DNA of 63,008 nt, the filler included, from Stramenopiles sp. TOSAG23-6 (lineage: Eukaryota), in the NCBI GenBank assembly GCA_900128565.1. It is 50 parts of 50 records of this genome, joined end to end, with 100 filler letters (N's around TTAATTAATTAA, not from the genome) between each part and the next. Parts side by side here need not be neighbours in the genome. Positions count along the whole stretch, not along the records: positions 1 to 1,173 come from LT639539.1; 49 more parts are not named here. The stretch is one strand, 5' to 3'. Numbering within the stretch: position 1 is the stretch's first letter; every line of letters starts with the position of its first letter. The notes below the pieces were generated by a model. It saw nothing but the letters and a program-made list of their open reading frames with translations. It searched no databases and was not told where the DNA came from. Below are positions 7 to 56,746 of this stretch, in pieces. The position numbers and the translations under genes are program-made.

Positions 7-554
<548 letters not shown>

Positions 555-715
555 TAAATTTTTTTACCAAAAAAAAAAAAAAAAAAAAAAATATTAGGTA
601 CGAAATTTCGTACTAAAAAAAAAATTATAAAAAAATTATATATTCAATTTCAAATCTTTCAAATCTCAAAATCAAAAATGTAGAATTCATAATAATCATT
701 TTTATTTAACCCTAA

Positions 716-995
716 CCCTAATTCATCCAATCTAGAAATAATAATGACAAACCTGCACTAACAAAAATCCCAAAAAGAATTTTTCGTGCTTCATTTCCTT
801 GAGAGGCTGCGGATTGCAAGTAGTGTGAAGAAATATTCCAATTTTTTTTTGTTTTTTGGTTAGGTACGAAATTTCGTACGAAAAAAAAAAACACGAAATA
901 TTCACATGAGTAAAAACATACAAAAGTTCTTTTGCCTTTTCAGCATCATTTGTTGCCCCTAACGCATTATCATATACATTATCTACCATGTCATG
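716..995 (-). CDS. C-terminal fragment of a Sel1-like repeat protein with a hydrophobic tail, split by intron 818-921
   Basis: Spliced product DMVDNVYDNALGATNDAEKAKELL|QSAASQGNEARKILFGIFVSAGLSLLFLDWMN* fits the Sel1 repeat consensus. Confidence 0.65.
818..921 (-). mobile_element. Introner-family intron, GT...TT boundaries, TT duplication
   Basis: CTT TT|GTATGTTTTT...CGTACGAAATTTCGTACCTAAC...CACACTAC-TT|G CAA; removal restores the Sel1 repeat. Confidence 0.75.
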
Positions 996-1217
996 TTTTT
1001 TTGTACAATATTTCAATTCTTTTTTGTTAGGTACAAAATGTCACAAAAAAAAACCCTAACCCTAACTAAAAAAAACCCTAACCCTAACAAAAAAATTGAT
1101 TGATGAAAACAAAAAAATTGATTGATGAAAACAAAAAAATTGATTGATGAAAACAAAAAAATTGATTGATGAANNNNNNNNNNNNNNNNNNNNNNNNNNN
1201 NNNNNNNNNNNNNNNNN

Positions 1218-54336: not shown

Positions 54337-55491
54337 GTTATTATTGTTATTACTATTGTTATTATTACTATTGTTATTATTGTTATTACTAGTATTATTA
54401 TTATTATTATTATTACTATTGTTATTACTATTATTAGTCCAATCGACCAGAAAAGCAATGACATGCTCCCGTATTAAATTGACTACTTTATATACAACAC
54501 ATTCCTTTTCCCATACAGAACACTTTTTCATAATAAAATCTTCAATATTAGAAAGAACCTCTGTTCCAAGCCAATTACCAACAGAACTAACATTTATTTT
54601 TGGTCCTGATTTTTCTGGATAATATTCGCTAAATTGAACACTGAGTACTAAAGGAGGGACATGTACAACACGTATTGAAGACGCTTTCCAAGAAGAAAAT
54701 GTTGCATTTCCTAAATATTGATTATTTATAATTTTTGCAATCTCAATATTTTCCTTTTTCTTTTTCTTTTCAAGCAAGACTTCAGTCTTTGCTTCTTTTG
54801 CTAATTGTATTTGTTCCTCTGCATGTTGTTGGGCAAAATAAATAGTTTCTTGTTTATGATTGACTTTTGCCAAAGCTATTCTTGCATCTATATCTAGTGG
54901 TGACGTATAATCGAAATTAACCACTTGTTCTTCTACCTGTTTGTGCTCAATCAATGTGAAAAAATATTTCAAATAAAAAAAATCATTAGGTACAAAATTT
55001 CGTATGAAAAAAAAATCGAAATTGAAATGAAAACGTTCTTGGTTAGTTTTCAATCGCTCAATTTCACGAATTGTTTCTAATGCTTCCAAGTCAGCTACAA
55101 TTGCCCGATGTTCTGCGATCTCTATACATTTTGTGAAAATATTTTAAATTTGAGATTCTTTAGATATGAAATATAAGAAAAAAAATCATTAGGTACAAAA
55201 TTTCGTACCAAAAAAAAAAAATTGAAATTCATGATAAAAACGTACATGGATAAGTTATCTAAATCATAAATAGACATTCCTTCGCTCTGAAGTAATTGAA
55301 ACGTTTCTTCAAGCGAAAATAACTTTTCTTGAGCTTCTAAAAGAGGAACATTTGTTTGTTTATTTTGTTTCATATTCTTTTGTGCATTATTATTTTGTGT
55401 CATGGCTTGCTTTGACTCCACTGGAACTGCCACACTTTGCTTTGACTCCACTGGAACTGCCACACTTTGCTTTGACTCCACTGGAACTGCC
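54337..55491 (-). CDS. RWD-domain protein fragment (RNF14-like); intron at 55124-55245 (GT...AT)
   Basis: DLEALETI...VVHVPPLVLSVQFSEYYP...P.I.V....WL...ECVVYKVVNLIREH. Confidence 0.7.
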
Positions 55492-55591: not shown

Positions 55592-56746
55592 GTTATTATT
55601 GTTATTACTATTGTTATTATTACTATTGTTATTATTGTTATTACTAGTATTATTATTATTATTATTATTACTATTGTTATTACTATTATTAGTCCAATCG
55701 ACCAGAAAAGCAATGACATGCTCCCGTATTAAATTGACTACTTTATATACAACACATTCCTTTTCCCATACAGAACACTTTTTCATAATAAAATCTTCAA
55801 TATTAGAAAGAACCTCTGTTCCAAGCCAATTACCAACAGAACTAACATTTATTTTTGGTCCTGATTTTTCTGGATAATATTCGCTAAATTGAACACTGAG
55901 TACTAAAGGAGGGACATGTACAACACGTATTGAAGACGCTTTCCAAGAAGAAAATGTTGCATTTCCTAAATATTGATTATTTATAATTTTTGCAATCTCA
56001 ATATTTTCCTTTTTCTTTTTCTTTTCAAGCAAGACTTCAGTCTTTGCTTCTTTTGCTAATTGTATTTGTTCCTCTGCATGTTGTTGGGCAAAATAAATAG
56101 TTTCTTGTTTATGATTGACTTTTGCCAAAGCTATTCTTGCATCTATATCTAGTGGTGACGTATAATCGAAATTAACCACTTGTTCTTCTACCTGTTTGTG
56201 CTCAATCAATGTGAAAAAATATTTCAAATAAAAAAAATCATTAGGTACAAAATTTCGTATGAAAAAAAAATCGAAATTGAAATGAAAACGTTCTTGGTTA
56301 GTTTTCAATCGCTCAATTTCACGAATTGTTTCTAATGCTTCCAAGTCAGCTACAATTGCCCGATGTTCTGCGATCTCTATACATTTTGTGAAAATATTTT
56401 AAATTTGAGATTCTTTAGATATGAAATATAAGAAAAAAAATCATTAGGTACAAAATTTCGTACCAAAAAAAAAAAATTGAAATTCATGATAAAAACGTAC
56501 ATGGATAAGTTATCTAAATCATAAATAGACATTCCTTCGCTCTGAAGTAATTGAAACGTTTCTTCAAGCGAAAATAACTTTTCTTGAGCTTCTAAAAGAG
56601 GAACATTTGTTTGTTTATTTTGTTTCATATTCTTTTGTGCATTATTATTTTGTGTCATGGCTTGCTTTGACTCCACTGGAACTGCCACACTTTGCTTTGA
56701 CTCCACTGGAACTGCCACACTTTGCTTTGACTCCACTGGAACTGCC
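55592..56746. repeat. Exact duplicate of contig 54337-55491
   Basis: Same 1155-nt length and ends; identical ORF translations. Confidence 0.95.

What the first reader, a model, noticed from the sequence alone, without database searches (positions are those of the whole stretch)
818..921. GT...TT intron with a matching TT duplication
CTT TT|GTATGT...CACACTAC-TT|G CAA gives EKAKELLQSAASQGNEA, a good Sel1 repeat. The nearest AG (11 nt further) leads to a stop within five codons. The flanking dinucleotide is TT on both sides, so the acceptor appears to follow the duplicated target rather than a fixed AT. Inference: the 3' site is set by position or structure (two bases after ...TAC), not by dinucleotide identity.
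Basis: partly seen in the sequence, partly recalled or inferred. Interest (0 to 1): 0.75.

Follow-up and report, generated by a model that had tools for sequence, protein, structure and literature searches.

The report
Intron ending in TT, rewired U1
A syntaxin-18 gene of a marine protist carries an intron that ends in TT instead of the near-universal AG; it belongs to a repeated intron family that mostly ends in AT, and the organism's U1 splicing RNA has three changed bases that match this family's start.

Summary
The 104-nt minus-strand intron (921-818, GT...TT) is real. Only a 104-nt removal aligns without gaps to a homologue (score 337; the three AG acceptors give 205-211). The gene is syntaxin-18, not Sel1. 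The intron belongs to a ~100-nt introner-like family. In 970 kb of the genome, 208 frame-open copies end in AT 164, TT 17, AG 11, GT 8, other 8. Non-AT ends copy the exon's last two bases in 22 of 44 cases (3.0 expected), as a 2-bp target-site duplication would. The copy is not needed for splicing: another TT intron in this gene follows AT. Contigs of one RNA run bridge three AT-ending copies exactly; no TT junction was bridged. Stop codons, wobble variation and two homologue residues favour the GT...NN register. The U1 snRNA 5' arm has three substitutions, each complementary to the family donor; U2, U5, U6 and the Prp8 alpha-finger are canonical. Position-defined acceptors are supported; duplication-guided choice is not. 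The scan noted the AT-ending family before on other DNA of this genome; two look-ups found no note on U1.

The parts
818..921 (-). 104-nt GT...TT intron, a copy of the introner-like family
   Evidence: Only a 104-nt removal gives a gapless top-scoring alignment to P0013 and P0016; matches the family consensus at donor, branch region and 3' box
914..924 (-). donor site (-3..+8), exon TTT then GTATGTTT
   Evidence: 9 of 11 pairs with this genome's U1 5' arm, 6.5 with the Rfam-consensus arm
864..879 (.). 16-nt perfect palindrome just upstream of the branch motif; family hallmark
   Evidence: forms a hairpin in the predicted fold
859..864 (-). branch motif CCTAAC, inferred branch A at 860, 41 nt from the intron end
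   Evidence: family branch-to-end distance has median 36-39 nt for TT and AT ends; the branch role is inferred from the U2 GUAGUA match
818..841 (-). conserved 3' box ending ...TAC, plus terminal TT
   Evidence: family consensus
922..923 (-). exon-end TT, the upstream copy of the 2-bp duplication
   Evidence: family statistics
922..992 (-). penultimate exon of syntaxin-18 (SNARE helix)
   Evidence: gapless to P0013 and P0016
718..817 (-). last coding exon of syntaxin-18 (end of SNARE helix, C-terminal membrane anchor, stop)
993..1173 (-). 3' part of the preceding family intron, ending AC-AT (complete in L002 1157-993, 165 nt); holds TTAGGG and 22-nt tandem repeats
170..441 (+). canonical GT-AG, non-family intron of the convergent UFM1 gene (exons 7-169, 442-554); shows that AG acceptors still work
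   Evidence: Pfam Ufm1 on both exons; spliced frame open to the stop

Best explanation
The element is an intron removed by a U2-type spliceosome that no longer needs AG. Origin (inferred): a short non-autonomous DNA element with ends GTA...TAC inserted into genes and duplicated 2 bp of target, mostly AT. It brought its own donor, branch point and 3' box; the downstream copy of the target became the acceptor. At this locus the target was TT, hence GT...TT. Splicing (partly shown): U1, with a 5' arm altered at positions 2, 5 and 9, pairs with the donor (exon ..AU, intron GUAYGUUU). U2 pairs with CCUAAC. The 3' splice site is placed two nucleotides after the conserved box ending in AC. AT is preferred there, but TT, AG, GT, CT and others are tolerated. 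The duplication is a footprint of insertion and is not read by the spliceosome. Shown: intron length and frame, family membership, 2-bp signature, exact removal of three AT-ending copies in RNA contigs, U1 complementarity. Inferred: transposon origin, use of this U1, the box as the positioning signal, splicing of this TT junction in vivo.
For: Gapless homology only for 104 nt. A second TT|GT...TT intron, in adenylosuccinate lyase, is exact to the residue: the upstream exon ends at PDB 7t24 residue 345, the downstream exon starts at 347, the split codon fills 346, and the next AG (+4) shifts the frame. 208 of 226 elements are frame-open; the best coding frame is on the sense strand in 212 of 226. 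RNA contigs of run X3 skip exactly 119, 104 and 91 nt at three family copies; none can be read as GT...AG. Register: junction stops in 0 of 61 mismatched cases for GT...NN versus 3 of 61 for NN...AC. Exon-end position -2 varies most when it is a wobble base (23 of 53 versus 33 of 139, p=0.012); the intron end does not (5 of 53 versus 21 of 139, p=0.35). Ile from the upstream copy matches MCCB structures; Met from the upstream copy matches P0016. The genome's U1 pairs better than the consensus arm at 207 of 208 donors (9.4 versus 7.1 of 11 pairs). Matched non-AT copies are closer to consensus than mismatched ones (median 33.8 versus 27.5, p=0.024).
Against: No RNA covers the 818-921 junction or any TT junction: the one read-laying run was on L046, and its TT intron was not bridged in the listed rows. 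RNA joints come from one run, with no DNA run as control, so a strain lacking the insertions is not excluded for those three. 44 X/AT pairs against 9 AT/Y pairs show an AT preference beyond simple duplication. The inverted repeat is short (GTA/TAC, about 7 of 8 nt in the consensus), and no transposase was looked for. The 3' end was called with a matrix trained on AT-ending copies that includes -4 and -3, so 'after TAC' is partly circular; the frame test is the independent part. 7 of 17 TT calls have an in-frame AG further on. An in-frame AT acceptor exists 15 nt upstream at this locus (score 322). U1 scores below the Rfam cut-off (54.1 versus 69.5 bits), only 41 of 253 candidates were scored, and expression is untested.
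Confidence: 0.8

Rival explanations
1. One reading: the spliceosome chooses the acceptor by matching it to the last two bases of the upstream exon, so the duplication is mechanistically required.
For: 22 of 44 non-AT ends match the exon end (3.0 expected); 142 of 208 match overall.
Against: 66 of 208 frame-open copies are mismatched. Two mismatched junctions are supported by homologues: AT|GT...TT in this gene and TT|GT...AT in MCCB (upstream side only). Mismatch rises with divergence from consensus (miscalls could contribute).
Confidence: 0.05
2. Shifted register: the introns are NN-GT...AC, a kind of AT-AC intron, and this one is TT...AC.
For: With a duplication both registers give the same mRNA. 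The read tool lists two RNA joints as AT..AC in their leftmost reading. AT-AC is a known terminal pair.
Against: Stops in 3 of 61 versus 0 of 61; wobble dependence on the exon side only; Ile and Met at two junctions. The canonical U6 ACAGAGA box fits +4..+6 in the GT register (inference). No U12 match (incomplete assembly).
Confidence: 0.06
3. The family is spliced as described, but this copy uses another in-frame site (the AT at 833-834 inside the 3' box), or the terminal AT belongs to the element (reverse-splicing spread, no true duplication) and TT is a later mutation.
For: The in-box AT keeps the frame (score 322 versus 337). X/AT pairs outnumber AT/Y pairs 44 to 9. Sense bias is 212 of 226.
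Against: It adds five residues inside the SNARE helix. A YAT upstream of the called end is skipped in 195 of 208 copies. The three RNA joints use the box end. Locus-specific non-AT matches (TT, AG, GT, CT, AC, AA) are not expected without duplication.
Confidence: 0.07
4. The elements are unspliced insertions, assembly errors, or are removed from DNA rather than RNA.
For: The RNA joints have no DNA control. Family sequence is deep in the RNA run.
Against: They interrupt core enzymes, and retention keeps a frame in only 17 of 162 cases. Both assembly copies carry this one. They have a donor complementary to U1 and a branch motif, and lie in the sense direction.
Confidence: 0.02

Closest known systems
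Introners that carry the donor and take the acceptor from the target-site duplication (Micromonas pusilla IE1, PMC11282704 passages; Chrysochromulina family, 10.1101/2022.06.06.494994 passages)
   Same: Repeated short introns, donor inside the element, acceptor from the duplicated target, locus-specific match between exon end and intron end.
   Different: There the co-opted acceptor is AG (stated for IE1; the passage on Chrysochromulina does not give the dinucleotide) and duplications are 3-4 bp. Here the duplication is 2 bp and 197 of 208 acceptors are not AG.
Non-GT/AG introns of the tunicate Fritillaria borealis (PMC13326754 abstract, introduction and one discussion section; PMC11282704 passages)
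   Same: MITE-derived, mostly non-canonical introns removed by a U2-type spliceosome; AT among the common 3' ends.
   Different: Fritillaria ends are diverse (AG-AC and AG-AT commonest), its U1 5' end is strictly preserved, and U2AF is duplicated. Here the donor stays GT (191 of 208), one family dominates, and U1 is changed at three positions.
Co-evolved U1 snRNAs of Entamoeba and Mastigamoeba (10.1101/2022.06.08.495308 passages)
   Same: Compensatory U1 changes. The ACGUAC core reported for Mastigamoeba and the extended +7 pairing of Entamoeba both recur here.
   Different: Here U1 position 9 also changes, to pair with exonic U at -1. The passages seen report no loss of the AG acceptor.
Amoebophrya introners and euglenid non-conventional introns (PMC11282704 passages; PMC7789003 listing only)
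   Same: Transposon-derived introns with non-canonical ends and boundary repeats.
   Different: Those have long inverted repeats or end-pairing structure, and U1 was apparently absent in Amoebophrya. Here U1 is present, a branch motif is conserved, and the ends do not pair.
Syntaxin-18 / Ufe1 (ER Qa-SNARE)
   Same: SNARE helix followed by a C-terminal membrane anchor; relative P0013 falls next to a Syntaxin-18 cluster.
   Different: The N-terminal part is not on the contig; the assignment rests on a relative and an automatic cluster name.

Membership tests
Introner (DNA-transposon type) | many similar introns at unrelated sites | tested here: met
   226 elements in 970 kb; consensus columns mostly 70-100%; unrelated host genes
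Introner (DNA-transposon type) | target-site duplication with locus-specific match | tested here: met
   22 of 44 versus 3.0; excess only at -2 and -1
Introner (DNA-transposon type) | terminal inverted repeat of 6 nt or more | tested here: inconclusive
   GTA/TAC perfect, about 7 of 8 nt in the consensus; only 4 of the first 5 nt in this copy
Introner (DNA-transposon type) | autonomous partner or transposase; empty-site alleles | not tested
   no transposase search was run; no DNA run was laid
U2-type spliceosomal intron | GT donor complementary to U1 | tested here: met
   9 of 11 pairs for this intron; mean 9.4 for the family
U2-type spliceosomal intron | branch motif complementary to U2 | tested here: met
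   CCTAAC 41 nt from the end; U2 GUAGUA intact; the branch itself is not mapped
U2-type spliceosomal intron | AG acceptor | tested here: not met
   TT here; AG in 11 of 208. It works like a U2 intron but is not a canonical GT-AG member.
U2-type spliceosomal intron | lariat formation and dependence on U1/U2 snRNPs | not testable with these tools
   needs experiments
U12-type (minor) intron | U11-type donor, U12-type branch close to the 3' end, U12 snRNA | tested here: not met
   donor GTAYGT and branch 33-48 nt from the end (the U12 consensus is recalled); no U12 match (weak, incomplete assembly)
Euglenid-type non-conventional intron | base pairing between intron ends, no U1 complementarity | tested here: not met
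   the predicted fold leaves the ends unpaired to each other; U1 pairing is strong
Sel1 repeat protein | Pfam Sel1 match or Sel1 homologues | tested here: not met
   no hit on the separate exon pieces or on homologues P0013, P0014, P0016, P0017
Syntaxin-18 | SNARE motif plus C-terminal anchor homologous to syntaxin-18 | tested here: met
   Pfam SNARE on P0013 is below the cut-off

The most novel reading that the evidence does not exclude
This lineage has rewired its major spliceosome around one invading element. U1 reads an AU exon end with GUAYGUUU, and the 3' splice site is placed by a conserved intronic box with a preference for AU, no requirement for AG, and tolerance of UU. It may have lost or altered U2AF35 and Prp18 (neither was found, in an incomplete assembly). 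This would be a natural GT-AT spliceosome that also accepts A at +1.
Probability: 0.5. Interest if true: 0.9.

Novelty: new variant of a known kind. Interest (0 to 1): 0.76.

Why it matters
The terminal AG is held in the spliceosome's active site by contacts with the branch A and the first intron G (established structure, recalled; the terminal pair is discussed in PMC13326754). A TT acceptor can make neither contact in the usual way, yet such introns interrupt core genes (syntaxin-18, adenylosuccinate lyase). With a three-base change in U1 that matches the donor, this is a natural test of what fixes the GT-AG rule and of how a spliceosome adapts to an introner invasion. Standard gene prediction will mis-splice these genes.

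Tried and rejected
Sel1: rejected. AG acceptors and retention: rejected. Word-index homologue search and PDB search with the 44-aa exon found nothing; the full HMMER search found the relatives (6 hits, 2 of them unrelated long repeat proteins). A search with the last exon timed out. A metagenome scan with the exon found no relative. No protein of this species was among 12 cold-shock-domain hits. The cold-shock gene's CG|GT...TT intron (L046 7285-7189), first taken as a TT case, is dropped as evidence: an AG 3 nt further keeps the frame. In X3, 12 of the 15 listed joints are not intron removals (most link different repeat copies); 4 more were not shown. U2AF35 was not among 23 CCCH hits; Prp18 and U12 were not found: none of this shows absence. 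A less motif-bound survey gave AT only 170, AG only 7, both 30, no; it is noisy, because an AT inside the 3' box can be picked, so no genome-wide fraction is claimed. Six literature searches listed no paper on a GT-AT intron family with an altered U1 in a marine protist; subscription papers and supplements were not seen, and Huff 2016 and Henriet 2019 were not read.

Full report
Setting. The window is 50 contigs of about 1.17 kb joined by N linkers, from a 21.1-Mb eukaryotic assembly. The finding lies on the minus strand of the first contig. A longer copy (L002) is identical over positions 1-1041. The 18S gene has signatures that I recall as stramenopile; I did not test this with a tree. The RNA runs that share words with the contig are seawater metatranscriptomes.

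The observation. Positions 921-818 read GTATGT...CCTAAC...CACACTAC-TT, 104 nt, with TT at the exon end. A search of 1.84 billion representatives with the exon two places upstream gave 6 hits, 4 of them SNARE-like. Scanning all 90 acceptor positions from 860 to 771 against P0013, the TT junction scored best (337, no gaps). Neighbours at multiples of 3 nt scored 321-326, the three AG acceptors 205-211 and retention 209. The spliced product also aligns without gaps to P0016 across all three introns of L002. P0013's best named Atlas cluster is Syntaxin-18 (0.96), and no Sel1 match was found. So the intron is real and the protein label was wrong. Because the boundary repeat is TTG, four registers give the same mRNA here.

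The family. A 20-nt motif of this intron has 79 matches in the window (both strands, palindromic copies counted twice) against 0.02 by chance. I surveyed 124 sources, 970 kb: the window and all loci then held, minus 9 duplicate, rRNA or snRNA loci, about 5% of the assembly. Matrices did not score the last two intron bases; GT at the start got only a bonus. 858 branch anchors gave 226 complete elements; the rest failed the donor or 3' box thresholds, ran off a contig or were duplicates. 208 of 226 keep a frame open for 75 nt on each side, versus 73-87 for shifts of 1-2 nt and 119 for the nearest AG. An earlier, smaller run gave 145 of 162, with 17 open on retention. The 208 end in AT 164, TT 17, AG 11, GT 8, CT 3, AC 3, AA 2, and start with GT 191, AT 10, other 7. 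The best coding frame is on the sense strand in 212 of 226. The branch-to-end distance varies (33-48 nt, 10th-90th percentile), so the end follows the 3' box, not a fixed ruler from the branch. Positions -4 and -3 are in the matrix, so their conservation is partly circular.

The duplication. 22 of 44 non-AT ends equal the exon end (permutation mean 3.0, maximum 12 of 10,000). The excess is confined to positions -2 and -1. This is the locus-specific test for a target-site duplication described in 10.1101/2022.06.06.494994 (passages seen). It is not required: 66 of 208 are mismatched, and 9 of 17 TT ends follow another dinucleotide (about three are doubtful calls). The intron two places upstream in this gene is AT|GT...TT; its nearest AG is out of frame and its Met aligns with Met in P0016. 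Matched copies are closer to consensus than mismatched ones (p=0.024 for non-AT ends, p=0.0001 for AT ends), as expected of a decaying footprint, though miscalls could contribute. 44 X/AT against 9 AT/Y pairs point to a preference for AT at the acceptor.

Other TT cases. In adenylosuccinate lyase a TT|GT...TT intron is exact to the residue against 7t24 (345, split codon, 347), and the next AG is out of frame. Of 17 frame-open TT calls, 10 have no in-frame nearest AG and 7 do.

RNA. Run X3 holds this organism or a very close one (listed exon pieces of 166-510 nt with 0-3 differences). Three of its 15 listed joints remove family copies exactly: 119 nt and 91 nt (AT|GT...AC-AT), and 104 nt best read as AT|AT...AC-AT. 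None can be read as GT...AG; the 104-nt joint slides through a TA...AG reading that has no donor. No TT junction was bridged. Contigs cannot exclude a strain lacking the insertions, and no DNA run was laid.

Register. GT...NN is favoured over NN...AC by four results. Junction stops: 0 versus 3 of 61. Wobble-dependent variation at the exon end (23 of 53 versus 33 of 139, p=0.012) but not at the intron end (p=0.35). Ile from the upstream copy aligns with Ile in MCCB structures. The Met above. Each is modest alone; they agree.

The spliceosome. U5, U2, U1 and U4 lie in one cluster (L078) and U6 elsewhere. U5 loop 1, the U2 branch-pairing box and the U6 ACAGAGA box are canonical. The U1 5' arm differs from the Rfam consensus at positions 2 (U to A), 5 (U to G) and 9 (C to A). 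These face intron +7 U, intron +4 C/U and exon -1 U, each the family consensus. This arm pairs better than the consensus arm at 207 of 208 donors (9.4 versus 7.1 of 11 pairs; median duplex -9.5 versus -1.9 kcal/mol), and equally (6 versus 6) at the canonical UFM1 donor. U1 scores 54.1 bits (cut-off 69.5, E 1e-12), and another U1 is not excluded. Prp8 1401-1700 aligns without gaps to human, with the alpha-finger unchanged but for W to F (the region's role is recalled). A divergent U2AF65-like ORF is present, below the family cut-off. U2AF35, Prp18 and U12 were not found, in an incomplete assembly. The search listing of PMC10711555 says that loss of Prp18 activates non-YAG sites in yeast, which makes this a lead only.

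Mechanism. An element with ends GTA...TAC carried donor, branch and 3' box, duplicated 2 bp on insertion, and used the copy as acceptor (inferred). The spliceosome pairs the altered U1 with the donor and cuts two bases after the box, preferring AT and tolerating TT (length and frame shown; recognition inferred).

Known and new. Each ingredient has a precedent: acceptors taken from duplications, non-AG introns in Fritillaria with unchanged U1, and co-evolved U1 in Entamoeba and Mastigamoeba (see Closest known systems for what was read). Six searches listed no report of the combination. This scan noted the AT-ending family on other pieces of this genome; two look-ups for U1 found no note. Verdict: real, a new variant of a known kind, interest 0.76. 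Support is strong for the family and for this intron's length, indirect for TT use in vivo.

Noticed in passing
L078:9-645 (G000:C1146; copy on C6122): U5, U2, U1 and U4 snRNA genes lie head to tail within 640 bp; U1 has three substitutions in its 5' arm.
   Followed up: yes
L046:4640-4743: Family intron starting with AT instead of GT and ending AT, bridged by an RNA contig; 10 of 208 copies start with AT.
   Followed up: partly
window 593-613: Palindrome and branch motif of the family with no evident donor, between the convergent UFM1 and syntaxin-18 stops; 858 anchors versus 226 complete elements suggests many partial copies.
   Followed up: no
window 708-720, 1046-1095; L002: Telomere-like TTAGGG repeats in introns, after the stop and in coding sequence (Asn-Pro runs); the branch motif CCTAAC is a permutation of the C-rich telomere unit.
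   Followed up: no
L046, run X3: Family intron sequence is laid at summed depths in the thousands, against about 5-20 for exons, in a poly(A) library: summed copies, internal priming or stable intron RNA.
   Followed up: no
L136:556-661 on the minus strand (metagenome contig): The one exact motif match outside the assembly has the same AT|GTATGT...TAC-AT build.
   Followed up: partly
L133 (Prp8), human residues about 1440-1452: Short divergent patch in an otherwise near-identical stretch.
   Followed up: no
L075 (G000:C137): AT-rich bacterial-type LSU and SSU rRNA genes, probably the mitochondrial genome.
   Followed up: no
window 15236-16165: A real Sel1-repeat ORF (Pfam E 1e-27), unrelated to the finding.
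   Followed up: no
window 54337-55491 and 55592-56746: Two neighbouring contigs look like duplicates; the assembly has many such pairs.
   Followed up: no
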